From: a virus
Lineage: Duplodnaviria > Caudoviricetes
Virus record (IMG/VR): IMGVR_UViG_3300025679_000005
Direction: 5' to 3' (one strand)
Length of the DNA stretch: 64,000 nt
Part shown: positions 12,796-49,992 of the stretch, piece after piece
How the letters are laid out: each line of letters starts with the position of its first letter
Position numbering within the stretch: position 1 is the stretch's first letter
Notes under the pieces: generated by a model
Databases searched by the model: none
Told to the model about the DNA's origin: nothing
Seen by the model: the letters and a program-made list of their open reading frames with translations, nothing else
Position numbers and translations under genes: made by a program

Positions 12796-12850
12796 CCCTT
12801 AGGTTTGTGAGAACCACTGCCGTATAGTGAGGCATGAAAGTTTGCTCCAA

Positions 12851-14026
12851 ATGATTCGTTCCTACCGATACCCCCTGCACCCAACGAAGGCCCAGGAAGC
12901 GATCCTGCTTCACTGGCTTCGCATGTGTTGCAGTCTGTATAATGGGGCACTGGAGGAACGTAAGTCCTCTTGGGTCAAGCTAAAGAAGGGTGTCTCCTAC
13001 CTCAATCAGCAGAGGTCTCTGACTATCATTCGGGCACAAGATCCTGACTTCGAAGCGATCCCAGCAGCTATTCTTAGGGCCCCTCTCAAGCGTCTCGATC
13101 GCGCCTACAAGGCGTTCTTCCGCCGTGTTAAATCCGGCGAAACTCCAGGCTTTCCCAGATTTAAGAGCAGTAAGCGCTATGATTCCTTCTCGTTAATGGG
13201 GCAATTCTCTGAGGCCACCCCTAAGGCCAAAGGGCGATCAGCCCAAGTTCGCATCCCGAAGCTGGGGTTAGTCAAGTTCAACCAATACCGACCCCTCAAG
13301 GGGAAGGTCAGAGATATCCTCGTCAAGCGAGAGGCTGATCGATGGTTCGTAATCTTTCAGTGTGACCTAGGAGCTGCCCCTGAGGTCGTTGTCGACCCTA
13401 CGAAGTCCGTCGGCATCGACTTGGGACTCACCCATTTCGGGACTTTGGATGATGGGACGACGATCTCCAATCCCAGGTTCTTCAAGGCAGGGCAGGACCT
13501 CCTAGCACGTCGCCAATGCGCTCTGCAACGCAAGCGCAAGGGCAGCCGCTCCCGACAACGGGCCAAGACCCTAGTCCAGAGGGCTCACGCTCACGTCAAG
13601 AACCAGAGGCTAGATCACGCTAGGAAGCTGGCGAAGTCCCTCTTTGAAACGAATGACATAGTCTGTTACGAGGACCTCTCGATTCAGGAGATGATCTCAG
13701 GTCCTTCCAGAGATGGTAAATACAAGCTCAATTTAGCGAAGTCAATCGTAGATGCGTCCTGGTCAATCACAATCCACTGCCTAAAATGCAAAGCGGAAGA
13801 AGCTGGCAAATTAGCGGTAGGGGTAGATCCAAGAGGGACCACACAGAGGTGTAGTGGGTGCGGAACCGTCGTCCCAAAGGGACTCCGGGACCGCGTTCAT
13901 GATTGCCCCGTCTGTGGCCTCATCATGGATCGTGACCAGAATGCAGGATGTAACATCAAAGCGCTCGGTTTGAGCGCGGTCAGTGGCTTGCGAAGCCAGC
14001 CGAAGTCCGAAAGGAAGGCGGCTTAA
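12851..14026 (+). CDS. tnpB: TnpB RNA-guided nuclease, copy 1 (intact)
   Basis: MIRSYRYPLHPT HTH, GIDLG (RuvC-I), YEDL (RuvC-II), CSGC..CPVC Zn finger, DRDQNA (RuvC-III). Confidence 0.95.
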   Translation: MIRSYRYPLHPTKAQEAILLHWLRMCCSLYNGALEERKSSWVKLKKGVSYLNQQRSLTIIRAQDPDFEAIPAAILRAPLKRLDRAYKAFFRRVKSGETPGFPRFKSSKRYDSFSLMGQFSEATPKAKGRSAQVRIPKLGLVKFNQYRPLKGKVRDILVKREADRWFVIFQCDLGAAPEVVVDPTKSVGIDLGLTHFGTLDDGTTISNPRFFKAGQDLLARRQCALQRKRKGSRSRQRAKTLVQRAHAHVKNQRLDHARKLAKSLFETNDIVCYEDLSIQEMISGPSRDGKYKLNLAKSIVDASWSITIHCLKCKAEEAGKLAVGVDPRGTTQRCSGCGTVVPKGLRDRVHDCPVCGLIMDRDQNAGCNIKALGLSAVSGLRSQPKSERKAA

Positions 14027-25367: not shown

Positions 25368-26033
25368 GTGCTCAAGGACGACAAGCTCTTGAAGGCTTGG
25401 CGGAAGTGCACGGTCATCGTCAGTGAGAAACTTGACGGTTCCAACACCGGAGTCAGCTTCAGCCCTGAGGGTCTGCTGATCCTTCAGAGTCGGGGCCACG
25501 TGCTCACAGGAGGCGCCAGAGAGCGTCAGTTTGAACTATTCAAGCAATGGGGCCACTCCAACATCGACGCCCTCTACGGAGCCATAGGGAGTCGTTACGT
25601 CCTGTTCGGTGAATGGCTCTATGCCAAGCATAAGGTCTTCTATGATGCATTACCCGGGTACTTCATCGAGTACGACCTGTACGACAAGGAAGCCAAGAGG
25701 TTCTTGACGACGCCTCAACGAGCGGAGATCATCGGATCCTTGGGAGTCCCCTCGGCGCCGGTATTGTTCGAAGGAGTGTTTGGCAAGGTCAACAACTTCG
25801 TGCAATACGTCGGACTGTCCGCGTTCAAGACGCCTAAGTGGCGATCCCATTTAGGTTCCCTCGAAGGAACTGACGACAGCTCGTGGATGGAAGGGATCTA
25901 TATCAAAATCGAGGACGACTTTGAGGTTGTCGGGCGGATCAAGTTTCCTCGCCCGGAATTCGAGAAGATCCGGGATGACGACACGAACTGGCTGCGTCGA
26001 CCGATCGTGAAGAACCTGCTCCGTCAGGGGTGA
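25368..26033 (+). CDS. ATP-dependent RNA ligase family protein
   Basis: SEKLDGSN (motif I), FGEW, EGIYIK. Confidence 0.85.
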   Translation: MLKDDKLLKAWRKCTVIVSEKLDGSNTGVSFSPEGLLILQSRGHVLTGGARERQFELFKQWGHSNIDALYGAIGSRYVLFGEWLYAKHKVFYDALPGYFIEYDLYDKEAKRFLTTPQRAEIIGSLGVPSAPVLFEGVFGKVNNFVQYVGLSAFKTPKWRSHLGSLEGTDDSSWMEGIYIKIEDDFEVVGRIKFPRPEFEKIRDDDTNWLRRPIVKNLLRQG

Positions 26034-26362
26034 CAGAGGTCGCAGCCGGGACTGCTGCAAGCGCAGTATGGCTTGAGTTTTGGCTGTGGAGGTTCTTTAC
26101 CGCTACCTTCGCAGTGAGGACACTCCATCATGAGCCTGGAGTTCATGGGCACATGCACCTGTTTTTTGCCTGCGCAGCGACCACAAGGTGTTGAGGACGC
26201 TACAGGGAATGGCAAGGATAGCTGCGGGCAGGTCAGGTGCTCGGCCTTGAACTTGTCCACAGAGGCGAGGACCCCGCTCAAAGCTGCCGGCATTTTCAGT
26301 GCTTCAGAGACGCCGCACTTCTGACAATGGAACACCGGGGGTTGTCTCAGCGTACTGAGCAA
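26024..26362 (-). CDS. Cys-rich hypothetical protein (DnaJ-type CxxCxGxG-like)
   Basis: CQKC, CGRCAG, CPHCEGSG. Confidence 0.55.
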   Translation of the reverse strand: MLSTLRQPPVFHCQKCGVSEALKMPAALSGVLASVDKFKAEHLTCPQLSLPFPVASSTPCGRCAGKKQVHVPMNSRLMMECPHCEGSGKEPPQPKLKPYCACSSPGCDLCHP

Positions 26363-26365
26363 TCA
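26344..26365 (-). promoter_or_regulatory. 22-nt 5' leader hairpin element, copy 1
   Basis: TGATTGCTCAGTACGCTGAGAC, 10 nt after GGTGTA. Confidence 0.75.
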
Positions 26366-26590
26366 AATATTGGTATACACCGCCGCCCCTGTCTGGAAAA
26401 TTAGTACCGTCACCAGGCCAGCGTCTTCACCGGGTATCGGTTCTCCTAGATTACCATTTCCAACTTACGCCTTTCAACGTGTGGGGTTAGCCCGCTTGCG
26501 CGGGCAATGGGGTTTCTAAAGTTCCACCTGCTCAGCCGACCTGATGACTAAGCTTGACCACGTCTAGCTCGGGGCAAGCCTAGTTGGATT

Positions 26591-27608: not shown

Positions 27609-28802
27609 ATGATCCGTTCCTTTCGTTACCAACTGCATCCAACGAGGGGTCAGGAAGCGACCATGAGGGGCTGGCTTCTCACATGCGGCAGTCTTTACAA
27701 TGGAGCCCTGGAAGAGAAGAAGTCCTCGTGGGTCAGGCTCAAAAAGGGCGTTTCCTACAATGATCAGACCCGGTCACTGACTCTCATCAGATCTCAGGAT
27801 CCTGCTTTTGAAGTGATCCCAATGATGGTGCTGAGATCAGCGCTTAAGCGACTTGAACCGCGGGAAGCCTGGTGTTTCGCCAGACTTTAGGCGTCGGAAG
27901 AATCCGTCGAAGGAGCGATCAAAGGTAGCAAGAGGTATGATTCATTTTCGTTGATGAGATCCTCTAAAGTACTCCCCAAGATCAAAGAACGCTCAGCCCA
28001 AGTCAAAATCCCCAAATTGGGTTTGGTGAATTTCAATCAGTACCGCCCTCACAAGGGAACGATCAAGGACATCCTCGTCAAGCGAGAAGGGGATCGCTGG
28101 TTCGTGATTTTCCAGTGCGATTTGGGAACCTCCCCAGAGACCGTTGTCGACTCCACGAAGTCCGTCGGTATCGACCTGGGACTCACCCATTTCGCGACTC
28201 TGGATTCCGGTGAGACGATCGAGAACCCCAGGTTCTTCAAGGCGGGGCAGGAACTTCTGGCTCGGCGGCAGCGTGCCCTGCAACGCAAGCGCAAGGGCAG
28301 TTCTAGTCGGAAGCGGGCCAAAATCCTTGTCCAGAGGGCTCACGCTCACATCAAGAATCAGCGATTAGATCACGCTAGGAAGCTGGCAAAGTCACTCTTC
28401 AGTCGGTTTGACGTTGTCTGTTACGAAGACCTCACGATCCAGTCAATGATCGAAGGTTCTTATCTAGCGAAATCAATCGTAGATGCGTCCTGGTCAATTA
28501 CAATCCACTGCCTAAAGTGCAAAGCGGAAGAAGCTGGCAAATTAGCGGTAGGGGTAGATCCAAGAGGGACCACACAGAGGTGTCATGCCTGCGGAACCGT
28601 TGTCCCCAAGGGACTCCGTGACCGCGTCCATGATTGCCCAGAGTGCGGCCTCATCATGGATCGTGACCAGAATGCAGGATGTAACATCAAAGCGCTCGGT
28701 TTGAGCGTGGTCAGTGGTCGATTTGACCAGCCGAAGTCCATAGGATCCTCAGATTTTATGGGCAAAACCCGGACACGAACCTGCTCAAAGACAGCAGGTT
28801 AA
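27609..28802 (+). pseudogene. tnpB: TnpB copy 2, interrupted by a 62-bp internal inversion (27857-27918)
   Basis: Flipping the segment restores KRLDRSFDGFFRRLKSGETPGFPRFKGSKRY in frame; RuvC D/E/D intact. Confidence 0.92.
28689..28790 (+). ncRNA. Predicted omega-RNA 3' scaffold and guide, copy 2
   Basis: Ends GGGCAAAACC at 28769. Confidence 0.65.
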
Positions 28803-29963: not shown

Positions 29964-31152
29964 ATGGATCGTTCCTACCGATACCCCCTGCATCCGACGA
30001 AGGGCCAGGAAGCGACCTTGCTTCACTGGCTTCGCGTGTGCTGTAGTCTCTACAACGGGGCTCTAGAAGAACGTAGGGGTTCTTGGAGTCGACTCAAAAA
30101 AGGGAATTACCTACGTTGATCAATCAAAGTCCTTGACCACCATTCGCGGGCAAGACCCTGAATTCGAAGCTATCCCCGCTTCTATCCTGAGGTCTCCTTT
30201 GAAACGCTTGGATCACTCCTACAAGGCATTTTTCCGCCGCGTGCAGTCTGAGGAAACGCCTGGCTTCCCACGGTTCAAGAGCAGCAAGCGTTACAACTCT
30301 TTCTCGCTAATGATATCAGCCTCTAAGGTCGTCCCAAAGACCGAAGGATCATCAGCCTTAGTGAGAGTCCCAAAATTAGGTCTTGTTAAGTTCAATCAGT
30401 ATCGACCACATCTTGGGAAGATCAGAAATACCGTTGTCAAGCATGAGGCCGGTAAATGGTTCGTGATCTTCCAGTGCGATTTGGGAACCTCCCCAGAGAC
30501 CGTTGTCGACTCCACGAAGTCCGTCGGTATTGACCTAGGGCTCACCCACTTCGCGACATTAGACTCCGGTGAGACGGTCGAGAACCCCAGGTTCTTCAAG
30601 GCGGGACAAGAGACCCTTGCGAAGCGCCAACGCAAGCTATCGCGTAAGCGCAGAGGCAGCAGGTCTAGACAACGGGCTAAGACCCTCGTTCAAAGAGCCC
30701 ACCTTCATATCAAGAATCAGAGGTTAGATCACGCTAGGAAGCTGGCAAAGTTTCTCTTCAGTCGGTTCGATGTGGTCTGTTACGAGAACCTTCAGATAGC
30801 AAACATGATTCAGGGAAACCTGAGCAAGGCAATCTCGGATGCGGGTTGGTCTATACTCCTCAAGTGCCTAAGATGCAAAGCTGAGAATGCTGGCAAACTG
30901 GCAATTGGGGTTGATCCAAGGGGAACCACACAGAGGTGCCATGGGTGCGGGGAGATCGTCCCCAAGGGACTTCGGGTCCGCGTCCACAATTGCCCTTTCT
31001 GTGGTCTCGTCATGGACAGAGATCAGAACGCTGCCCTAAATATCAAAGCGCTCGGTTTGAGCGCGGTCAACGGCCTGCAAGGCCAGCCGAAGCTTAAGCT
31101 AGAAGTTTTAAGCAAAACCTCAGAAACCTTCTTTGTAGCGGATCCTTTGTGA
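29964..31152 (+). pseudogene. tnpB: TnpB copy 3, frameshifted by one extra base in an A6G3 tract (30096-30104)
   Basis: N-terminus MDRSYRYPLHPT stops at TGA 30117; remainder in +1 frame with intact RuvC motifs. Confidence 0.9.
31045..31140 (+). ncRNA. Predicted omega-RNA 3' scaffold and guide, copy 3
   Basis: Ends AAGCAAAACC at 31119. Confidence 0.65.
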
Positions 31153-31415
31153 TCCAATACTTCGGTTGGGCGGCCGCTACGCTATTCACGATTGCCTCAG
31201 GGCTTCAGGTCATCAAAGTATGGCGAGAAGGCCAGGCCAAGGGGATGTCCTGGTGGTATCTCCTTCTAGTCTGGACGGGCTTTTGGCTCATGGGTGCGTA
31301 CACCATCCACACCAAAGTAGGCAGTGCTCTGATCTACAGCTACGGCCTCCAACTAGTCGCTTTCACGGTCATGATCGTTCGAAAGCTATTCCCCACTGCC
31401 GGAGTTGGTGTATAA
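31149..31415 (+). CDS. PQ-loop/SemiSWEET-like small membrane protein
   Basis: 3 TM segments; LQVIKVWREGQAKGMS pattern. Confidence 0.65.
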   Translation: MIQYFGWAAATLFTIASGLQVIKVWREGQAKGMSWWYLLLVWTGFWLMGAYTIHTKVGSALIYSYGLQLVAFTVMIVRKLFPTAGVGV

Positions 31416-31420
31416 TCCCT

Positions 31421-31442
31421 TGATTGCTCAGTACGCTGAGAC
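31421..31442 (+). promoter_or_regulatory. 22-nt 5' leader hairpin element, copy 2 (RRM gene leader)
   Basis: Identical sequence, 8 nt after GGTGTA. Confidence 0.75.
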
Positions 31443-31485
31443 AGCTGGATGATGCCCCCAGCAAAGAGAAAGCAAGTAAGTCAGA

Positions 31486-31929
31486 ATGGGAAACAGATTG
31501 TTCGTAGGAAACCTCTCGTACAACACGAATGAGGCTAGTTTGTCGGAGATCTTCGCCAAGTGTGGGTCGATCACCAGCACCAAAATCATCACGGATCGTG
31601 AGACCGGTCAGAGCCGCGGATTCGGCTTCGTCGAGTTCGCTACCGACTCGGAAGCTGCCGGCGCCATGGAGTCCCTGAACGGGGCCCTCTTGGATGGCCG
31701 TCCCCTGGCCGTCAAGGAGGCAGAAGCCCGTCCCCCGCGCCAAAGTGGCGGTGGTGGTGGCTACACCAGCAGGCCGTCCAGTGGTGGCTACTCCAGTGGT
31801 GGCTACTCCAGTGGTGGCGGTGGTTATGCAGCCTCCCCTCCTCCCGAGCTGCCTCCAACCGGTGGCCGCAACAAGGGTGGCGGTGGCAAGCAGCGTCGTG
31901 ACCGTGATCGCAGTGACCGCGACTACTGA
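31486..31929 (+). CDS. RRM RNA-binding protein with Gly-rich tail
   Basis: RNP2 LFVGNL, RNP1 RGFGFVEF; SSGGY repeats. Confidence 0.95.
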   Translation: MGNRLFVGNLSYNTNEASLSEIFAKCGSITSTKIITDRETGQSRGFGFVEFATDSEAAGAMESLNGALLDGRPLAVKEAEARPPRQSGGGGGYTSRPSSGGYSSGGYSSGGGGYAASPPPELPPTGGRNKGGGGKQRRDRDRSDRDY

Positions 31930-31948: not shown

Positions 31949-31979
31949 AAAAGGGCTGGCAGAGGATGCTAGCCCTTTT
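31949..31979 (+). terminator. Intrinsic terminator
   Basis: AAAAGGGCTGGCA/TGCTAGCCCTTTT. Confidence 0.75.
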
Positions 31980-32003: not shown

Positions 32004-32279
32004 ATGAGCCTCAAGAAGCTGTGGGATACGGTTGGTGACGCCCTCGACGAATTTGTGGAAGAAGTTCTAGAGGACATCGTCCCTACGATTGAAGCGGCCA
32101 AAGACGAACGCTCCGGAGTGGTCAAGGAGCTAGCTGTCTTGACCACTGACAGCCCTGAGGTCATCGAGCGACGGGCACTGGGGATCTACCTCAGTATCGT
32201 CAAACACATCAAGGGTGGTGGCTCCGTCAAATTCTTGGACGCCAAAGGCGTGCGGACCCTCAAGGTCCCTCTGCGGTGA
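32004..32279 (+). CDS. Hypothetical protein
   Basis: ATG 10 nt after GGTGTA. Confidence 0.6.
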   Translation: MSLKKLWDTVGDALDEFVEEVLEDIVPTIEAAKDERSGVVKELAVLTTDSPEVIERRALGIYLSIVKHIKGGGSVKFLDAKGVRTLKVPLR

Positions 32280-32470
32280 TCTTCTGGGAAGAAACCCGAA
32301 AGGAGTCGGGACACTTCGAGAAGTTTTACCGTCGAAACGGGAGCTTCATCTTCGACTTCAGTCGATGGATTTGGTTCCAGCAACGAGGGGACTTCAGTCT
32401 AGGAGCTTGTGCTACTCCCTACGAGCACCCTGAGTTCTGGGCTGGGGTTTTTGGTATTGAATTGGTGTAA
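32276..32470 (+). CDS. Hypothetical protein
   Basis: Coupled GTG; ends in class B motif. Confidence 0.5.
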   Translation: MIFWEETRKESGHFEKFYRRNGSFIFDFSRWIWFQQRGDFSLGACATPYEHPEFWAGVFGIELV

Positions 32471-32479
32471 GAAGCGTAC

Positions 32480-32569
32480 TGATTGCTCAGTACGCTGAGA
32501 CTACGACCTGTCTATTACTGACGGACAGGCTCAAAAAGACCGATGAGAACAGCTCTCATCGGTCTTTTT
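32480..32569 (+). ncRNA. Promoter-to-terminator small RNA carrying 22-nt element copy 3
   Basis: GGTGTA 32464; hairpins 32486-32499 and 32507-32529; 16-bp terminator 32533-32569; no ORF. Confidence 0.6.
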
Positions 32570-32596
32570 CGTTGGTGTATGATACTATCCGCCGCT

Positions 32597-34288: not shown

Positions 34289-34717
34289 ATGTCCACGCCA
34301 CTCCTCCTCATTGAACGCACTTCCGACACCCCGATACGTCCCAAAGATATCGACGGAGATAGTGCCTTTATCGGAGCGTTTGGTCAACGTGAGCAGGAGA
34401 CACTAGCCCTCTGGATTGTGCGTCTGTGCCAGGCCAGGAAGAGTTGGCGCCCGTTCAAAATAACGGATCTCGTGAACTACTACGCGATGCATTACGGGAT
34501 TGAAGCTAAGGACTTCGAGTACAGCCTGAGCTTTTTGACGAAGCAAGACTGGGTCGTGGTCGAGGGGGAAGTCGTCACCCTCACTATCCCCTTTGTTGCT
34601 CAATGCTACTTGCACGCTCCGATATTGAGGCTGCCTTTAAGAAAAAAGGTTCGTAAACCTAAAGTGATCGAGCGCATTAGCCGTTACGAACGGCTAATGA
34701 AAGGGTTTCTTCCATAG
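34289..34717 (+). CDS. Hypothetical protein; last codons supplied by convergent TnpB element end
   Basis: Overlaps element 4 right end (34704-34717). Confidence 0.6.
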   Translation: MSTPLLLIERTSDTPIRPKDIDGDSAFIGAFGQREQETLALWIVRLCQARKSWRPFKITDLVNYYAMHYGIEAKDFEYSLSFLTKQDWVVVEGEVVTLTIPFVAQCYLHAPILRLPLRKKVRKPKVIERISRYERLMKGFLP

Positions 34718-35856
34718 ACTCTGGAATTCGGCTGGGGCTTCATCCCCAAGACCGCGCTCAAACCGAGCGCTTTTATATTCAATGCAGCGTTCTGATCTCT
34801 GTCCATGACGAGACCACAGACAGGGCAGCTATGGACGCGGTCCCGAAGTCCCTTGGGGACGACGGACCCGCACGCATGACACCTCTGTGTGGTCCCTCTT
34901 GGATCTACCCCTACTGCTAACTTGCCAGCTTCTTCCGCTTTGCATTTTAGGCAGTGAATGGTGATTGACCAGGATGCATCTGTGATTGATTTGGCTAGAT
35001 ATGAGCCTTCGATCATCTGGGCTATTGAAAGGTCTTCGTAGCAGACGATGTCATTCAATTCGAAAAGACTCTTAGCGAGCTTCCTAGCGTGATCTAGGCG
35101 CTGATTCTTGATATGGGCGTGAGCCCGCTGGACTAGGATCTTAGCTCGCTTCCGACTGTTGCTGCCCCGGCGCTTGCGTTGCAGAGCGCGTTGGCGCCTG
35201 GCCAATAGATCCTGACCGGCCTTGAAGAAGCGAGGGTTCTCGATCGTTTCACCAGAATCGAGGGTGCTGAAATGAGCCAACCCGAGGTCGATACCGACGG
35301 ACTTCGTGGGGTCGACAACGACCTCGGGAGCGGCTCCGAGGTCACACTGAAAGATCACGAACCAGCGATTACCCTCTCTGCGAACTGAGATGTCCTTGAG
35401 CATTCCCTTGTGGGGGCGGTACTGGTTGAACTTGATTAGGCCTAACTTAGGGATTTTGACTCGGGCTGAATAGCCACTGGCCTTTGGGATCGGCTCAGAG
35501 AACTGTCCCATGAGCGAGAAAGAGTTATACCGTTTAGAGCTACGGAAGCGAGGGAATCCCGGCGTTTCGCCAGACTTTAGACGACGGAAGAATGCCTTGT
35601 AGGCGTGGTCAAGGCGCTTGAGAGGGGTCCTGAGGATAGTGGCTGGAATCGTCCTGAATTCAGGGTCTTGGGATCGAATGAGGGTCAGGGATTTCTGTTG
35701 ATCGTATCTGGTCAAACTTTTGCCGAATCTACGATAGCAGTTGATTCGCTCTTCCAACGCCCCGTTGTAGAGGCTACAACACAAGCGAAGCCAGTGTAGC
35801 AGAATTACTTCTTGGGTCTTCGTCGGATGCAGCGGGTATCGATAAGAACGGATCAT
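34684..35856 (-). CDS. tnpB: TnpB RNA-guided nuclease, copy 4 (intact)
   Basis: All RuvC and Zn-finger motifs; right end GGAAGAAACC at 34704. Confidence 0.95.
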   Translation of the reverse strand: MIRSYRYPLHPTKTQEVILLHWLRLCCSLYNGALEERINCYRRFGKSLTRYDQQKSLTLIRSQDPEFRTIPATILRTPLKRLDHAYKAFFRRLKSGETPGFPRFRSSKRYNSFSLMGQFSEPIPKASGYSARVKIPKLGLIKFNQYRPHKGMLKDISVRREGNRWFVIFQCDLGAAPEVVVDPTKSVGIDLGLAHFSTLDSGETIENPRFFKAGQDLLARRQRALQRKRRGSNSRKRAKILVQRAHAHIKNQRLDHARKLAKSLFELNDIVCYEDLSIAQMIEGSYLAKSITDASWSITIHCLKCKAEEAGKLAVGVDPRGTTQRCHACGSVVPKGLRDRVHSCPVCGLVMDRDQNAALNIKALGLSAVLGMKPQPNSRVYGRNPFISRS

Positions 35857-44451: not shown

Positions 44452-45399
44452 TCATGGTTTCTCGTACAGTTCCTTGTCCAGCCGAAGGAGAATGGGAGCG
44501 TCTTCAAGCTCATTCAAGTAGGGCTGAACCTGTCCTACTCCGTAGAAGGTCCCTGCCAATGCCCCGGTGATGGCGGCGGTTGTGTCCGTGTCCCCGCCAG
44601 CTCGGACAGCGATCTCAACAGCATCGGCAAAGTTGCTGGTGGCCAGAAAACAGAGGAGGGCGGCTGGAACCGTCTGAACCACGTGGGCTCCGGTCCCCAT
44701 CTCCAAAAGAGCCTTCAAGGTTTCCTTGAGGCGGGCGACGGGCTCTGTGGGAAGCTCACTTAGGAGATCCTGGACATCCACGAGCTTCGAGATGATGTCC
44801 CCCTCGTACGTTGTGTAGTACAGGACTCTTCGGATGAAATTGTCGTCGGAGCGTGGGTCCAAGTTTGGCGGAGGGGCATTCACTAGCAGGGCTGTAGCCA
44901 CTGCAATGATAACGGCCCCTTCGACGGATGCCTCCGAGCTGTGCGTGATTCGAGAGTCGATCCTGGCGGCGATGGCGGCCGTTCCTGGGCTGTTGTAGTA
45001 GAACAAGCCCAGGGGGGCGGCCCGCATAGCCGAACCGTTCCCTTCGCTGGGCACACCGGAGTCGAGCCAGTGGTGCCCACTCAGGATACGCTCCAGGGCC
45101 TCCTTGGTGGCTTTGCCCATACCTCTGTGGTCGTTGGAGGCATACCACTCAATGTAGTTCTGAGCTGCCCCTACGGGGTCATAGGTTCCGCTGGCCGCTA
45201 GGCTCGTGGCCAGGGCTGTGGCCATCTTCGTGTCGTCAGTCCACTGCCCTGGCTTCAGATTGGGCTGAAGGGTGTTGATGTCCCATGAGCGGAAGGAACC
45301 ATCCCAGTCCAGCAACGCTTCCGAGGAGAAGTGATGGGTTTCAAAGGGCCCTCCAAGACTATCCCCCACAGCCAGGCCAGTGAGTGTCGCCGGAATCAT
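44452..45399 (-). CDS. ADP-ribosylglycohydrolase (DraG/ARH family)
   Basis: GLAVGDSLG, WTDDT, GNGSAMR, GGDTDT. Confidence 0.93.
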   Translation of the reverse strand: MIPATLTGLAVGDSLGGPFETHHFSSEALLDWDGSFRSWDINTLQPNLKPGQWTDDTKMATALATSLAASGTYDPVGAAQNYIEWYASNDHRGMGKATKEALERILSGHHWLDSGVPSEGNGSAMRAAPLGLFYYNSPGTAAIAARIDSRITHSSEASVEGAVIIAVATALLVNAPPPNLDPRSDDNFIRRVLYYTTYEGDIISKLVDVQDLLSELPTEPVARLKETLKALLEMGTGAHVVQTVPAALLCFLATSNFADAVEIAVRAGGDTDTTAAITGALAGTFYGVGQVQPYLNELEDAPILLRLDKELYEKP

Positions 45400-46547: not shown

Positions 46548-48014
46548 ATGACTACAGCTTTAGAGAGTGACGCATACAAAGCCTCGATGACCGAAGCGGG
46601 TTTCCCGTTGCGAGACGAAAACTTTTACTACGCGCATCGGCGTGGCGGGGCCCAAGGCTGGCACTACATGCCACTTGATGTCAACAAATTCATTCAGAGC
46701 ATCCTACCGACGCCGACGGAAGAGGATTATAACTACCTGAAAGAACACAACTACGAGGCCGGTGCTGGTACTCGTAAGGCCTTCACGCTGAAAGATCAAG
46801 TGAAGATCCTATCCGTACCTCAAGGCGGATGGTTCTACAACCGTGAAGCTGCGTTCAGTGGAAGGGGGCCTTCAACTCTCGTGAGCTGGCTGGAGCCCAA
46901 GACTCTGCAACTGCATCTTCGCATCCAAGTAGCGACGGCGTACATGTCCGCCGACCCTTCTCTAGCCGAAAAGATTCGGTACGTTACATGCGAACGTGAG
47001 AAAGAGATCATCCTGGAAACCCTGGATTCTCTGAAACCTTTGGGCGTTCGGGCCGCCCAAAGGTTTCAGATCGAAGTCTGCGAGCAGCAGTACTATGACG
47101 CCGTATACGCTCGTGCTCGAAAGCTCGTTGACGTGGTGCACAATCCAGATCGCATCTTCGAAGTCGGTATGCGTGGAGTGTCTTGCATGGAGCAGCACGA
47201 GATCGCGCTCCGAGCAATCAAAGATGCGGGCATTCTTCGCACCTCCAATATGGAACTTGCTCGCAGGCTGGGGATGACCCCCGTAGGTACAATGGGTCAC
47301 GAGCACCCTCAGCGGATGGGTGGGGACTACTGTGCTTTTGCCACTATGCGGGATCGTTTTCCAGGCTTCTTGTTCTACTTACCCGACACCTTCGACACTA
47401 TTCGCTCTGGAGTGCCTGCCGCCTTGCGTGCGATTGGGGAAGCCCCCGACCGTAATGCGGGCATTCGTTTCGACTCGGAAGAAGGTATCCGAGGACATTA
47501 CATGTTCACCGTGGTCCGTGCCAGAGAGCTTGGGTTGACACCCAACTTGGCCCTGGAAAGTGGCTGGAACCACGACCTGACTGTAGAATTTGAAGAACTT
47601 CGAAAGCAGATCAAATGGCCGGAAGATCGCCAGTGTTATGGCTTTGGGGGGTTCCTCAATAAAACCCCCTGGCCGTCCTTCGAGCGGGATACCGTCTCCG
47701 CAGTGTGGAAGCTCTCTCAGACAGGAAATCGTGCGGTCATGAAGTTCGGAGATGAGCCCGGTGGGGCCAAGGAGTCTATTCCCGGCCGTCCGCAAATCTA
47801 TCGTCCAAAGCCGGCTGTGCACAGTGATGTGATCGGCTATGTTTACCAAGAAGGCGAGGATCATCCCAACTCTGATGTCTTCTGCCTGAGCGGCCAGGAG
47901 ATGACCTCTCCGCTATACCCAGGCCGTCCAGGATCGTTGGTGTACTCCCCAGAAACTCAGCGTTTGGTGAGCGAGTGTCGTGCCGCCAAGAAGCGTATCC
48001 TGGAGGAGTGCTGA
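46548..48014 (+). CDS. pncB: Nicotinate phosphoribosyltransferase-like (PncB/NAPRTase family)
   Basis: SDAYK, TSN, GTMGHE, LPDTFD, IRFDS; directly upstream of nadE. Confidence 0.8.
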   Translation: MTTALESDAYKASMTEAGFPLRDENFYYAHRRGGAQGWHYMPLDVNKFIQSILPTPTEEDYNYLKEHNYEAGAGTRKAFTLKDQVKILSVPQGGWFYNREAAFSGRGPSTLVSWLEPKTLQLHLRIQVATAYMSADPSLAEKIRYVTCEREKEIILETLDSLKPLGVRAAQRFQIEVCEQQYYDAVYARARKLVDVVHNPDRIFEVGMRGVSCMEQHEIALRAIKDAGILRTSNMELARRLGMTPVGTMGHEHPQRMGGDYCAFATMRDRFPGFLFYLPDTFDTIRSGVPAALRAIGEAPDRNAGIRFDSEEGIRGHYMFTVVRARELGLTPNLALESGWNHDLTVEFEELRKQIKWPEDRQCYGFGGFLNKTPWPSFERDTVSAVWKLSQTGNRAVMKFGDEPGGAKESIPGRPQIYRPKPAVHSDVIGYVYQEGEDHPNSDVFCLSGQEMTSPLYPGRPGSLVYSPETQRLVSECRAAKKRILEEC

Positions 48015-48015
48015 T

Positions 48016-49992
48016 ATGCACCTTCTAAAGGTAGGGACAGCTTCCGTCAATCAGGCCCCTCTCGATTGGACGGGTAACTACGAGAACATCGTCGAAGCCA
48101 TTAACATGGCGGCGGCAGAAGGAGTGCAGATCCTCTGCCTCCCGGAGCTGTGCATCACCGGCTACGGGTGTGAGGATCACTTTCACTCGTACGATGTTCA
48201 GCAGACGGCGCTCCAAGTTCTGAAGATGATCGCCAAGGACATCTCCGAGGCAGAGCTGAAGATCAAGGTCTGTGTAGGGTTGCCGTTCTTGCACAACAAC
48301 GCCCTGTACAACGTTGTGGCCATGATCGATTCCGGCAGGATCTTAGGGTTCGTACCCAAGCAACATCTAGCCGGCGACGGGCTGCACTACGAGCCTCGTT
48401 GGTTCAAGCCCTGGCCTGCGGGTCATCAGGACGTAACCAACTTCATCGACGACGAACTCTACGTCCCGATTGGAGACATGATCTTCGAATTCCGTCACAC
48501 GGGGGAGTCAGCCGTCGTGCGGGTAGGCTTCGAAATCTGTGAAGACGCCTGGGTGGCCAACCGTCCTGGTGCTCTGCTCTCTCAGTACGGGGTAGACATC
48601 ACGATGAACCCCTCGGCTTCCCACTTTGCTTTCGGCAAGTATGAGGTCCGTCAAAGGTTCGTCATGGAAGGGTCCCGAGCTTTCGGCACAACCTATCTCT
48701 ACGCGAACTTGCTGGGCAATGAAGCCGGGCGGGCTATCTACGACGGCGGTAACCTCATCGCTACCAAAGGGAGCATCGTAGGGTTTGGGCGACGATTTTC
48801 GTTCAAACCTGTGGAACTCCTGACGGCGGTCATCGACATTGATGCCACGAGGACTCAGCAGTCTGCCACGGCCAGCTTCACGCCTAAGTTGGGGAAGTGT
48901 CGTGTCATGCAAGGGTATCAGGCCCTGGAGGCCACCGAAGAAGGGGTATCCAACGGGCATGCCATACAGGAGGACGAGACCCACGACGAATTCACCAACG
49001 CCATCTCCTTGGCCTTGTGTGACTACATGCGTAAAGCCCATTCTAAGGGGTTTGTGATCTCCCTCAGCGGTGGGGCTGACTCGGCCGCTTGTGCCGTGCT
49101 GGTCCGAAAGATGTGGGACATCGGTGTGGACACCTTTGGGGAAGAGCTGTTCCTCGAACACTTGGGACTCGAACCTGGAACAGGGTTCAAGGACATCCTC
49201 ACGTGCATGTACCAAGGCACCAAGAACAGCTCTGACGTGACTTTAAACGCAGCAACAGTCGTTGCCGAAGAGCTGGGGGCCAAGTTCTTGATCGTCTCCG
49301 TAGACAGCCTCGTGGAGGGCTACAAATCAATGATGTCGACGGCTTTGGGTCGGGAGCTATCCTGGGAGACTGATGATCTGGCCCTACAAAACATCCAAGC
49401 CCGTGTCCGAGCGCCTAGCATCTGGATGGTAGCAAATGTCGAGGGGAAGCTCCTGATCACTACCAGCAACCGAAGTGAAGCGGCGGTGGGGTATTGTACA
49501 ATGGACGGTGATACCGCCGGCAGTATTGCGCCGATTGGTGGTATCGGCAAAGCCTTCTTGCTCCGTTGGCTACGGGACTCCGCAAGACTAGACTTCCCTT
49601 CCCTGGAAGCTGTGATCAAGCAGAAGCCGACAGCAGAGCTTCGCCCAGGGACTTCGGCGCAGACAGATGAGACCGACCTCATGCCTTACGAAGTTCTAGA
49701 TGCAGTAGAAAAGGAGGCCATTGTGGGCAAGAAGTCTCCAACTGATGTCTACAGGTCTGTTCGTCGTAGGTTCTCAATGTACGCTGAAAAGGACCTTCTT
49801 CTCTGGATCGAGCGGTTTTTTCTTTTATGGGCCAGGAATCAGTGGAAGCGCGATCGGCTTTCCCCAGGATTCCACGTCGATGAAGAAAGTCTTGACCCCA
49901 AAACATGGTGCAGGTTCCCAATCCTCTCAGGAGGCTTCGTCCAAGAGCTTGCCGCACTGCGAGCCTACGCCAAAGCTGAAGGTGTGTGTTGA
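48016..49992 (+). CDS. nadE: Glutamine-dependent NAD+ synthetase
   Basis: Nitrilase domain (LPEL, K, EICED) fused to synthetase (SLSGGADS, NIQARVR, SNRSE, PTAEL). Confidence 0.97.
   Translation: MHLLKVGTASVNQAPLDWTGNYENIVEAINMAAAEGVQILCLPELCITGYGCEDHFHSYDVQQTALQVLKMIAKDISEAELKIKVCVGLPFLHNNALYNVVAMIDSGRILGFVPKQHLAGDGLHYEPRWFKPWPAGHQDVTNFIDDELYVPIGDMIFEFRHTGESAVVRVGFEICEDAWVANRPGALLSQYGVDITMNPSASHFAFGKYEVRQRFVMEGSRAFGTTYLYANLLGNEAGRAIYDGGNLIATKGSIVGFGRRFSFKPVELLTAVIDIDATRTQQSATASFTPKLGKCRVMQGYQALEATEEGVSNGHAIQEDETHDEFTNAISLALCDYMRKAHSKGFVISLSGGADSAACAVLVRKMWDIGVDTFGEELFLEHLGLEPGTGFKDILTCMYQGTKNSSDVTLNAATVVAEELGAKFLIVSVDSLVEGYKSMMSTALGRELSWETDDLALQNIQARVRAPSIWMVANVEGKLLITTSNRSEAAVGYCTMDGDTAGSIAPIGGIGKAFLLRWLRDSARLDFPSLEAVIKQKPTAELRPGTSAQTDETDLMPYEVLDAVEKEAIVGKKSPTDVYRSVRRRFSMYAEKDLLLWIERFFLLWARNQWKRDRLSPGFHVDEESLDPKTWCRFPILSGGFVQELAALRAYAKAEGVC

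What the first reader, a model, noticed from the sequence alone, without database searches (positions are those of the whole stretch)
32464..32569. Stand-alone ~90-nt small RNA (promoter to terminator) carrying the RRM-leader hairpin
Seen: GGTGTA box, the 22-nt element, a second stem (CCTGTC/GACAGG) and a perfect 16-bp terminator ending in T5, with only a 12-codon frame inside. It lies about 550 bp after the RRM gene. Inference: a decoy or sponge RNA that titrates the protein binding the same hairpin in mRNA leaders (CsrB-like logic).
Basis: partly seen in the sequence, partly recalled or inferred. Interest (0 to 1): 0.6.

Follow-up and report, generated by a model that had tools for sequence, protein, structure and literature searches.

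The report
Stand-alone CasPhi guide-like RNA gene
The small RNA unit is real in the sequence, but its shared hairpin is the guide-RNA "handle" of the miniature CRISPR nuclease CasPhi (Cas12j), so this is a self-contained, ready-made CRISPR-like RNA gene of a huge phage and not an RRM-protein sponge.

Summary
Observation confirmed. 32464-32569 holds a GGTGTA promoter box, a 22-nt element, a second stem and a perfect 16-bp terminator with T5.

The 22-mer occurs exactly three times in the window, each 8-10 nt after a GGTGTA box: in the RRM leader, in a Cys-rich gene leader, and here.

It is a CasPhi/Cas12j crRNA handle. It matches the published Cas12j-3 crRNA handle at 20 of 22 positions, and the two differences form one compensatory pair. 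It has the same GAUUG / 5-bp stem / YACG loop / AC layout as the Cas12j-2 repeat.

The box-to-start-codon spacing in this window puts the transcription start at the first handle base. The RNA would therefore need no processing.

The unit is a solitary repeat unit with the same build as viral crRNA-like RNAs (Racr, CracrVA1, CreR).

The 20 nt after the handle match exactly a replication-initiator gene of Pseudomonas-type temperate phages. That site has GAC where a TTN PAM should be, so cutting is doubtful.

Whether the RNA guides CasPhi or only occupies it is unresolved. No evidence ties the hairpin to the RRM protein.

This scan had already noted promoter-plus-CasPhi-handle units elsewhere in this genome and CasPhi handles in another phage genome. 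It is a new member of a known kind.

The parts
32463..32469 (+). Phage promoter box TGGTGTA of the stand-alone unit
   Evidence: Of the 56 GGTGTA sites in the window, 13 have an ATG that opens an ORF of at least 40 codons exactly 9-10 nt after the box. Letter-permuted control motifs do so at 1.7% of sites. The start is therefore inferred about 10 nt after the box.
32479..32481 (+). Predicted transcription start, at the first base of the handle
   Evidence: Inferred from the 9-10 nt box-to-ATG spacing of the apparently leaderless genes in this window. There is no RNA data.
32480..32501 (+). 22-nt CasPhi/Cas12j-type crRNA handle: UGAUUG, stem CUCAG (32486-32490), loop UACG (32491-32494), stem CUGAG (32495-32499), AC (32500-32501)
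   Evidence: There are three exact copies in the window. It matches the Cas12j-3 crRNA handle at 20 of 22 positions, and the two differences form one compensatory pair. Its layout is that of the Cas12j-2 repeat 3' end. C-1, A-2, G-17 and U-18, the bases contacted in the Cas12j-3 structure, are all present.
32502..32521 (+). 20-nt guide-like segment in the spacer position
   Evidence: It matches exactly six IMG/VR contigs of one family (L018-L023), inside a lambda-O-like replication initiation gene. The 5' flank of the target is GGAC, not TTN. There is no target in the window itself.
32505..32532 (+). Second stem-loop (core CCTGTC 32507-32512 / GACAGG 32524-32529), which pairs part of the guide-like segment with the 3' tail
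   Evidence: Seen in the sequence and in the minimum-free-energy fold.
32533..32569 (+). Intrinsic terminator: perfect 16-bp stem with A5 before and T5 after, so bidirectional in form
   Evidence: (I2). The weak Rfam matches in this region fall only on the terminator hairpin.
32473..32479 (+). 'Anti-handle' AGCGTAC in the promoter-to-start spacer, complementary to the handle loop and 3' arm
   Evidence: With these bases included, a 10-bp hairpin replaces the handle (-49 kcal/mol against -39). It is found only in this copy. Its function is unexplained.
31407..31442 (+). Second promoter-plus-handle module, heading the RRM gene mRNA (RRM ORF 31486-31929)
   Evidence: RRM_1, E = 1.3e-23. The box-to-handle gap is 8 nt.
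26344..26381 (-). Third promoter-plus-handle module, heading a Cys-rich (CxxC) ORF (26362/26292..26024, minus strand)
   Evidence: The box-to-handle gap is 10 nt.
32574..32579 (+). Separate GGTGTA box of the downstream metallophosphoesterase gene (ATG 32597), directly after the terminator
   Evidence: It shows that the small unit is bracketed and that the downstream gene has its own promoter.

Best explanation
The unit is a self-contained gene for a crRNA-like small RNA of the CasPhi (Cas12j, type V-J) kind.

How it is built:
- A compact phage promoter (GGTGTA) is placed so that transcription starts at the first base of a 22-nt copy of the CasPhi repeat's 3' handle.
- The handle is followed by a 20-nt segment in the spacer position.
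- Next comes a short hairpin that folds the tail back on that segment.
- A strong intrinsic terminator ends the unit.

How it would work: the roughly 90-nt RNA should be bound by CasPhi through the handle with no pre-crRNA processing, and the next 20 nt would occupy the guide position.

What is shown and what is inferred:
- Shown: the sequence identity of the handle, its three promoter-linked copies, the promoter spacing rule and the terminator.
- Inferred: transcription, CasPhi binding, and what the loaded complex does.

What the loaded complex does, in my estimate:
- About 45%: a non-cutting occupant or competitor of CasPhi. This covers a Racr/Cracr-like decoy or reprogrammer aimed at a rival's CasPhi, and a titrator of the phage's own enzyme shared with the two handle-led mRNAs.
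- About 35%: a genuine single guide against a competing temperate phage.

I put about 0.85 on the identity of the handle. The 0.7 given here is for handle identity plus CasPhi loading as the mode of action.
For: 1. Handle identity.
- The Cas12j-3 crRNA used for cryo-EM reads UAUUGAUUGCCCAGUACGC(G)UGGGAC plus a 20-nt spacer (PMC8298400 supplement).
- The window 22-mer UGAUUGCUCAGUACGCUGAGAC differs from that handle only by C-G to U-A at one stem pair.
- The Cas12j-2 repeat ends CGATTGCCCCTCACGAGGGGAC (PMC11048056). It has the same GAUUG, a 5-bp stem that is fully covaried, a YACG loop and a terminal AC.
- The Cas12j-3 paper states that the handle is held through C-1, U-18 and a G-17:A-2 pair. 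All four bases are at those positions here.
- Nine Cas12j crRNAs are reported to be structurally conserved, with a 25-nt mature handle (PMC11933828).

2. Promoter registration.
- 13 of 56 GGTGTA boxes have an ORF-opening ATG at a gap of 9-10 nt, against 1.7% for control motifs.
- The three handles start 8, 10 and 10 nt after their boxes.

3. The sequence is discrete and selected.
- The three copies are identical over exactly 22 nt and unrelated on both sides.
- The same handle occurs in other huge-phage contigs that share only 40-54% identity on two proteins with this window.

4. Folding and termination: z = -7.1; I2.

5. Architecture.
- It equals that of known viral crRNA-like RNAs: a single repeat-like sequence, a spacer-like sequence and a rho-independent terminator in CracrVA1 (bioRxiv 10.1101/2024.10.29.618823).

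6. Context.
- Earlier notes of this scan report an intact CasPhi locus about 53 kb upstream on the same 464-kb contig. I did not verify this here.
- Huge phages with CasPhi and no Cas1/Cas2 are documented (PMC7162821).
Against: - No casPhi gene and no array lie in the window. I could not read the phage's own repeat, so it is not shown that the 22-mer is this phage's own handle and not that of another CasPhi.
- The predicted handle is 22-23 nt, which is 2-3 nt shorter than the 25-nt mature handle reported for Cas12j-8.
- The handle occurs in neither IMG/VR nor the GTDB genomes, so I never saw it inside a bona fide array next to a casPhi gene. The nearest case is L014, a pair spaced 57 nt apart.
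- Nucleotides 6-11 of the guide position are paired with the tail, which is unusual for a working guide.
- There is no RNA or binding data.
- The Cas12j-3 sequence in the supplement is machine-read and carries one extra G. I treat it as an error because the paper's own numbering (G-17, U-18) fits only the version without it.
Confidence: 0.7

Rival explanations
1. True single-guide crRNA used as a weapon. The RNA arms CasPhi against a competing temperate phage by targeting its replication-initiator gene. This is a sub-reading of the best explanation, listed separately because it makes a different prediction.
For: - The 20 nt directly after the handle match six IMG/VR contigs of one family exactly. 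The site is in-frame in a lambda-O-like replication initiation gene next to dnaB.
- The relatives of that family are Pseudomonas phages PS-1 and Skulduggery.
- The identity stops exactly at 20 nt, a working CasPhi guide length.
- Control 18-mers from the other two leaders each hit one family with zero extension. Five chance hits to the 17-mer handle core extended by 0, 0, 3, 0 and 0 nt. An 18-mer hit that extends 5 nt therefore has p of about 0.005-0.02.
- Huge-phage spacers are known to target other phages (PMC7162821).
Against: - The target's 5' flank is GGAC. Cas12j-3 needs 5'-TTN and does not cut dsDNA with another PAM or none (PMC8298400).
- Three of the five extension bases lie in the handle end (GAC). 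The target therefore looks like the repeat itself, which is the configuration that protects an array from self-cutting.
- Counting only the guide side, the extension is 2 nt (p about 0.06), and one chance 18-mer hit was expected anyway.
- The first 10 nt (TAC GAC CTG T) are a common in-frame coding word. They recur twice in this window's own genes.
- There is no match in INPHARED phages or GTDB genomes.
- Part of the guide is locked in a hairpin.
Confidence: 0.3
2. The hairpin is an operator for the neighbouring RRM protein in mRNA leaders, and the small RNA is a CsrB-like sponge for that protein.
For: - One copy of the hairpin heads the RRM gene itself, which would suit autoregulation.
- The small RNA lies 535 bp downstream of that gene.
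- Three transcripts share the element.
Against: - The element is explained base for base by the CasPhi handle.
- The same 22-mer occurs in other huge-phage contigs, in tRNA arrays and as a tandem pair, with no RRM gene in the fetched flanks.
- RRM domains typically bind short single-stranded motifs, not a closed 5-bp UNCG-type hairpin (general knowledge).
- A sponge of the CsrB kind carries many sites. This RNA has one.
Confidence: 0.06
3. DNA-level operator. The CTCAG-N4-CTGAG inverted repeat at +1 is the binding site of a dimeric repressor that co-regulates three promoters. The small unit is then a titrating promoter or a decayed gene start.
For: - The inverted repeat sits at the predicted start of all three promoters.
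- In the stand-alone copy the palindrome is extended to 10 + 10 bp.
Against: - Conservation covers 22 nt asymmetrically: GATTG on one side and AC on the other. It matches RNA contacts in CasPhi, not a symmetric operator.
- The extended palindrome is absent from the other two copies.
- Copies in other phages are not at promoters.
Confidence: 0.04
4. Leaderless mini-ORF. The TTG inside the element starts a conserved peptide MLSTLR. It runs 12 codons here, forms a 27-codon uORF overlapping the RRM start, and is in frame with the Cys-rich ORF.
For: - The TTG lies 11-13 nt after the GGTGTA box, within the range of box-to-start distances.
- The frame is open into the Cys-rich ORF and includes a CxxC motif.
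Against: - GAUUG is conserved in untranslated Cas12j repeats.
- In one search, which scored ATG starts only, the leaderless-type starts sit at a gap of 9-10 nt. This TTG is a different codon at a different gap.
- Identity includes the 3 nt before the TTG and all synonymous positions.
- An in-frame read-through has a 1-in-3 chance.
- UUG is a poor leaderless start (general knowledge).
Confidence: 0.03
5. Inert relic. The copies are leftover CRISPR repeat fragments scattered by recombination, with no present function.
For: Earlier notes describe decayed repeat copies elsewhere on the contig (unverified).
Against: - The three copies have no mismatch in 22 nt.
- Each is registered to a promoter box at 8-10 nt.
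- The same 22 nt are kept in phages that are only distantly related.
- This copy has a dedicated strong terminator.
Confidence: 0.07

Closest known systems
CasPhi-3 / Cas12j-3 crRNA (cryo-EM complex, PMC8298400) and the Cas12j-2 CRISPR repeat (PMC11048056)
   Same: - GAUUG, a 5-bp stem, a YACG tetraloop and a terminal AC.
- 20 of 22 identical to the Cas12j-3 handle, with one compensatory pair.
- The contacted bases C-1, A-2, G-17 and U-18 are present.
- The guide follows the handle on the 3' side.
   Different: - It is not part of an array.
- The 5' half of the 36-nt repeat is replaced by a promoter.
- The 5' end would be set by transcription, not by CasPhi processing.
- The handle is about 22-23 nt, against 25.
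- No casPhi gene lies within the 64-kb window.
CracrVA1 and CreR, crRNA-like regulatory RNAs of type V-A (bioRxiv 10.1101/2024.10.29.618823; 10.1101/2023.03.10.532045)
   Same: - One repeat-like sequence, one spacer-like sequence and a rho-independent terminator.
- Encoded by a phage.
- Expected to compete for and reprogram a Cas12-family protein.
   Different: - Those RNAs act through about 10 nt of PAM-flanked complementarity to a cas promoter. I found no such site, and the casPhi promoter is outside the window.
- The type is V-J, not V-A.
- The phage reportedly carries the matching nuclease family itself.
RNA anti-CRISPRs (Racrs) / viral solitary repeat units (PMC10651486)
   Same: - A solitary repeat directly behind a promoter in a viral genome, away from cas genes.
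- A small non-coding RNA that would occupy a Cas protein.
   Different: - Racrs mimic the host's repeats to block host immunity. Here the mimicked system is a phage-borne one.
- Inhibition is untested.
- The unit also has a guide-length segment with an exact foreign match.
Virus-borne CRISPR mini-arrays used in virus-virus conflict, and huge-phage arrays that target other phages (PMC7162821; mini-arrays of archaeal viruses recalled from my own knowledge, not checked here)
   Same: - A minimal CRISPR unit on a virus.
- The spacer matches an essential gene of another phage.
   Different: - It has a single repeat, not repeat-spacer-repeat.
- The target lacks the expected PAM.
CsrB/RsmZ-type protein sponges
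   Same: A small RNA that would share a binding protein with mRNA leaders.
   Different: - One binding site, not many.
- The protein is predicted to be a CRISPR nuclease, not a CsrA- or RRM-type regulator.
- No titration has been shown.

Membership tests
CasPhi/Cas12j (type V-J) crRNA handle | 3' end of the repeat-derived part is ...AC (C-1, A-2), directly followed by the guide | tested here: met
   32500-32501 is AC, and unique sequence follows in all three copies. The paper states the contacts to C-1 and A-2.
CasPhi/Cas12j (type V-J) crRNA handle | GAUUG 5' of the stem, giving U-18 and G-17 | tested here: met
   32481-32485 is GATTG. Counting back from C-1 gives G-17 and U-18. The same pentamer is in the Cas12j-2 and Cas12j-3 sequences.
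CasPhi/Cas12j (type V-J) crRNA handle | 5-bp stem closed by a 4-nt YACG loop, with the stem kept by covariation between orthologues | tested here: met
   - Here: CUCAG-UACG-CUGAG.
- Cas12j-3: CCCAG-UACG-CUGGG.
- Cas12j-2: CCCCU-CACG-AGGGG.
Only three sequences were compared, by eye.
CasPhi/Cas12j (type V-J) crRNA handle | Occurs as the repeat of an array next to a casPhi gene | not testable with these tools
   - There is no casPhi gene or array in the window.
- Earlier notes place a CasPhi locus about 53 kb upstream, but its repeat sequence was not visible to me.
CasPhi/Cas12j (type V-J) crRNA handle | Bound (and, in a precursor, processed) by CasPhi | not testable with these tools
   This needs a gel shift or RIP-seq.
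Viral solitary repeat unit / Racr | Single repeat copy outside any array and away from cas genes | tested here: met
   The three copies lie 1 kb and 5 kb apart and none is in a repeat-spacer series.
Viral solitary repeat unit / Racr | Promoter directly upstream | tested here: met
   A GGTGTA box lies 8-10 nt before each copy. The box is validated statistically as a start signal in this window. This is a sequence inference only.
Viral solitary repeat unit / Racr | Inhibits the CRISPR-Cas system whose repeat it mimics | not testable with these tools
   This needs an interference assay.
Cracr/CreR-type crRNA-like regulator | Single repeat-like sequence, spacer-like sequence and rho-independent terminator | tested here: met
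   compared with the description.
Cracr/CreR-type crRNA-like regulator | Partial (about 10 nt), PAM-flanked match of the spacer-like part to a cas or toxin promoter | tested here: inconclusive
   Within the window only two 10-nt seed matches exist. Both are in-frame coding words without TTN. The casPhi promoter is outside the window.
Functional CRISPR guide (spacer with protospacer) | Spacer-length identity to a foreign element | tested here: met
   There is a 20/20 match to L018-L023. Significance is moderate: p about 0.005-0.06, depending on what is counted.
Functional CRISPR guide (spacer with protospacer) | Correct PAM (5'-TTN/TBN for characterised CasPhi) 5' of the protospacer | tested here: not met
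   The flank is CTGGAC in all six contigs.
CsrB-like protein sponge | Multiple binding motifs per RNA | tested here: not met
   There is one handle per unit.
Intrinsic terminator | GC-containing stem followed by a U-run | tested here: met
   A 16-bp perfect stem with T5. The consensus scanner did not list it, probably because the T-run is itself part of the stem.

The most novel reading that the evidence does not exclude
The CasPhi handle is used as a 5' tag on ordinary phage messages, here those for an RRM RNA-binding protein and a zinc-ribbon protein. CasPhi would then double as a post-transcriptional regulator of phage genes. The stand-alone RNA would be the competitor that sets how much CasPhi is free: a CsrA/CsrB-like circuit built on a CRISPR nuclease. 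The anti-handle would make only promoter-initiated copies competent.
Probability: 0.15. Interest if true: 0.8.

Novelty: new member of a known kind. Interest (0 to 1): 0.5.

Why it matters
It shows that a huge phage expresses CasPhi-type RNAs outside any array, from its own compact promoters and in a form that needs no processing. It also shows the same handle starting two protein-coding messages.

If the RNA is a working guide, it is a natural single-guide gene (promoter, handle, 20-nt guide, terminator). It would also point to Pseudomonas-type temperate phages as rivals, and so hint at the host.

If it is an occupant or decoy, it extends RNA anti-CRISPR and crRNA-like regulation (known for types I and V-A) to type V-J and to conflicts between phages that each carry CasPhi.

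Either way it gives a short, defined RNA for testing what CasPhi needs in order to load a guide.

Tried and rejected
- Rfam: at gathering thresholds only a tRNA in the whole window. A permissive scan of the unit hit only the terminator hairpin.
- Close relatives:
  - blastn of the neighbourhood against INPHARED phages found nothing.
  - Protein-seeded locus searches in IMG/VR with the phosphoesterase and the 91-aa neighbour found nothing.
  - No whole genome is held.
- Handle in collections:
  - IMG/VR has no 22-mer.
  - It also has no Cas12j-3-like degenerate version.
  - GTDB genomes have none.
  - A 17-mer core gave only chance-like coding hits.
  - The single metagenome scan gave ten loci. 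Six carry the full handle ending in AC, in four loci (L010, L013, L014 twice, L017). L009 and L015 have U in place of C-1. The rest look like chance.
- Self-targets: none of the three post-handle segments, and none from the other loci, has a target in the window or in the fetched loci within 4 mismatches. The two 10-nt seed matches are in-frame Tyr-Asp-Leu coding words.
- Guide reading for the two mRNA leaders: their 18-mers hit IMG/VR only at chance level, with no extension.
- Protospacer in cultured phages or genomes: none.
- Tail as a decayed second repeat: its similarity to the 5' half of the Cas12j-2 repeat is marginal (32 of 1000 shuffles reach the score), and it has none to the L014 repeats. 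Not accepted.
- Cas12m-type handle: rejected. Cas12m crRNA is described as a roughly 30-nt triplex and pseudoknot with two stems (PMC11013384), unlike this single hairpin. No Cas12m sequence could be compared.
- Additional diverged handles in the window: none by a structure-aware pattern.
- Mini-ORF, DNA operator and RRM operator readings: see the rival explanations.

Full report
**Observation**

- The box TGGTGTA is at 32463-32469.
- A 22-nt element, TGATTGCTCAGTACGCTGAGAC, is at 32480-32501.
- A second stem pairs CCTGTC (32507-32512) with GACAGG (32524-32529).
- A perfect 16-bp inverted repeat, 32533-32548 / 32554-32569, ends in T5 (I2).
- The only frame inside is a 12-codon TTG frame (32483-32521).

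The 22-mer is identical to 31421-31442 in the leader of the RRM gene (D3; RRM_1 E = 1.3e-23). A third exact copy lies on the minus strand at 26365-26344, in front of a Cys-rich ORF. Shuffles never reach these counts.

Each copy follows a GGTGTA box by 8-10 nt. On both sides of the 22 nt the three loci are unrelated. The element is therefore a discrete module, not a duplicated gene start.

**Where the RNA starts**

GGTGTA is a start signal in this window. Of 56 occurrences, 13 have an ATG that opens an ORF of at least 40 codons exactly 9-10 nt after the box. Permuted control motifs do so at 1.7% of sites. This agrees with earlier notes on other windows of the same contig.

Read as a promoter for leaderless messages, the rule places +1 at 32479-32481, the first base of the 22-mer. 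It does the same in the other two copies.

From that start to the T-run the RNA folds into three hairpins at -39 kcal/mol, z = -7.1. The phosphoesterase gene downstream has its own box at 32574-32579, directly after the terminator. The unit is therefore bracketed.

**What the hairpin is**

Notes of this scan say the contig is a 464-kb peat phage carrying CasPhi. That led me to compare the element with published CasPhi RNAs.
- The Cas12j-2 repeat ends CGATTGCCCCTCACGAGGGGAC (PMC11048056).
- The Cas12j-3 crRNA used for cryo-EM is UAUUGAUUGCCCAGUACGC(G)UGGGAC followed by a 20-nt spacer (PMC8298400 supplement).
- The window element is UGAUUG-CUCAG-UACG-CUGAG-AC. It has the same GAUUG, the same terminal AC and the same UACG loop as Cas12j-3.
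- Its stem differs from Cas12j-3 by one compensatory pair, and from Cas12j-2 at every pair while staying paired.
- The Cas12j-3 paper says the handle is held through C-1, U-18 and a G-17:A-2 pair. Counting back from the terminal C, the window element has exactly those bases.

That numbering fits only the Cas12j-3 sequence without the extra G in the machine-read supplement, so I treat the G as an error.

Nine Cas12j crRNAs are reported to share this structure, with a 25-nt mature handle. Cas12m crRNA, the other small type V RNA reported on this contig, is a two-stem pseudoknot and does not fit. Rfam has no matching family.

**Relatives**

The handle is absent from IMG/VR and from GTDB genomes. 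One metagenome scan found it in other contigs.
- It lies inside tRNA arrays, on the tRNA strand, in L010 and L013.
- L009 and L015 show the same placement, with U in place of C-1.
- It occurs as a pair 57 nt apart in L014.
- It follows a terminator in L017.

These contigs share only two weak protein matches with the window, at 40-54% identity. The 22 nt are thus kept unchanged across distant huge phages.

None of these copies sits beside a casPhi gene in the DNA I could fetch. The large ORF before the L013 copy is a subtilisin-like protease.

**What follows the handle**

In a CasPhi crRNA the guide follows the handle. The first 18 nt after the handle hit six IMG/VR contigs of one family. The identity runs for exactly 20 nt on the guide side and 3 nt (GAC) into the handle end.

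The site is in-frame in a lambda-O-like replication initiation gene next to dnaB. The phages resemble Pseudomonas phages PS-1 and Skulduggery.

How strong is this match?
- An 18-mer is expected to hit IMG/VR about once by chance. The two control 18-mers, from the RRM and Cys-rich leaders, each hit one family with no extension.
- Five chance hits to the 17-mer core extended by 0, 0, 3, 0 and 0 nt.
- A 5-nt extension therefore has p of about 0.005-0.02. Counting the guide side only, p is about 0.06.

Against a working target:
- The flank is GGAC, where characterised CasPhi needs TTN, and Cas12j-3 does not cut dsDNA without it.
- The first ten bases are a common coding word that recurs in two genes of this window.
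- Guide bases 6-11 pair with the tail.
- The site is absent from INPHARED and GTDB.

I put the chance that the match is biologically meaningful at about 0.4.

**Mechanism**

The best-supported reading is that the unit makes a ready-made crRNA-like RNA that CasPhi binds through the handle.

The architecture matches known viral crRNA-like RNAs:
- solitary repeat units directly behind promoters, and Racrs (PMC10651486);
- the type V-A CracrVA1, described as one repeat-like sequence, one spacer-like sequence and a rho-independent terminator, which competes for Cas12a and redirects it to its own promoter;
- host CreR RNAs.

What the loaded complex does is open. I lean slightly to a non-cutting occupant or competitor (about 45%) over a true guide (about 35%).
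- What the three units share is only the handle and its registration to a promoter.
- The two other 'guides' are working mRNA leaders.
- The one candidate target lacks a PAM.

Nothing ties the hairpin to the RRM protein beyond adjacency.

**Unexplained**

- In this copy alone, the seven bases before the handle (AGCGTAC, 32473-32479) are complementary to the handle's loop and 3' arm. Any RNA started upstream would then fold into a 10-bp hairpin that abolishes the handle. This could shield CasPhi from read-through transcripts of the ORF ending at 32470, whose stop codon overlaps the box. That is speculation.
- The TTG within GAUUG is in frame with the Cys-rich ORF and opens a uORF over the RRM start. 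GAUUG is conserved in untranslated repeats, so I regard this as accidental.

**Limits**

- I could not read the phage's own CasPhi repeat.
- The comparison with published handles rests on two sequences.
- There is no expression or binding data.

**Verdict**

The unit is a new (type V-J) member of the known class of virus-encoded solitary-repeat, crRNA-like RNAs. This scan had already seen the same design elsewhere on this contig and in another phage genome.

Noticed in passing
L009:8898-8916(-), L015:2969-2987(-), L010:1164-1182(+), L013:1625-1643(+): In other huge-phage contigs the same CasPhi-type handle lies inside tRNA gene arrays on the tRNA strand, 23 to about 90 nt upstream of a tRNA. 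tRNA processing could therefore release a handle-plus-guide RNA, a natural counterpart of engineered tRNA-guide arrays. The L009/L015 copy has U in place of C-1.
   Followed up: partly
L014:618-701: Two copies of a 27-nt repeat end (AACCRAGATTGCTCAGTACGCTGAGAC) lie 57 nt apart on a 1.3-kb peat contig. This is a possible mini-array with a short spacer. No cas gene is on the fragment.
   Followed up: partly
window 32473-32496: A 10-bp perfect hairpin (AGCGTACTGA / TCAGTACGCT) overlaps the handle and excludes it. It exists only in the stand-alone copy. Its 5' arm lies mostly upstream of the predicted start.
   Followed up: partly
window 32276-32470: A 64-codon GTG ORF overlaps the stop of the 91-aa gene (GTGA), and its TAA stop overlaps the GGTGTA box of the small RNA unit. 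Pfam gives no match. Whether it is a real gene was not tested.
   Followed up: no
window 26024-26362 (-): A Cys-rich small ORF carries CxxC and CxxCxGxG-like motifs (Pfam matches only weak, E above 0.03). The TTG inside the handle is in frame with it. A GTG at about 26335 would put the start codon within the first 11 nt after the handle, where bound CasPhi could cover it.
   Followed up: partly
window 31424-31509: A 27-codon frame starts at the handle's TTG and overlaps the RRM start codon (31486) in another frame.
   Followed up: no
window 42581-42674 (-): A 94-nt tRNA with anticodon CUA, an amber suppressor type that ARAGORN labels 'Pyl'. It is the only tRNA in the window. Another note of this scan has already treated it.
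   Followed up: no
window 12827-14026, 27951-28802, 30133-31152, 40601-41752 (+), 34684-35856 (-): Five TnpB-type (OrfB_IS605 / Cas12f1-like TNB) genes lie in 64 kb. Two of them flank the RRM / small-RNA block.
   Followed up: no
window 31949-31979 and 32533-32569: Both terminators in this block are A-run / stem / T-run hairpins, so bidirectional in form. The consensus scanner lists the first but misses the second, probably because its T-run is part of the stem.
   Followed up: partly
window 47980-49992, 44452-45399 (-), 25368-26033: NAD synthetase-like, ADP-ribosylglycohydrolase-like and RNA ligase genes, seen while annotating the surroundings.
   Followed up: no
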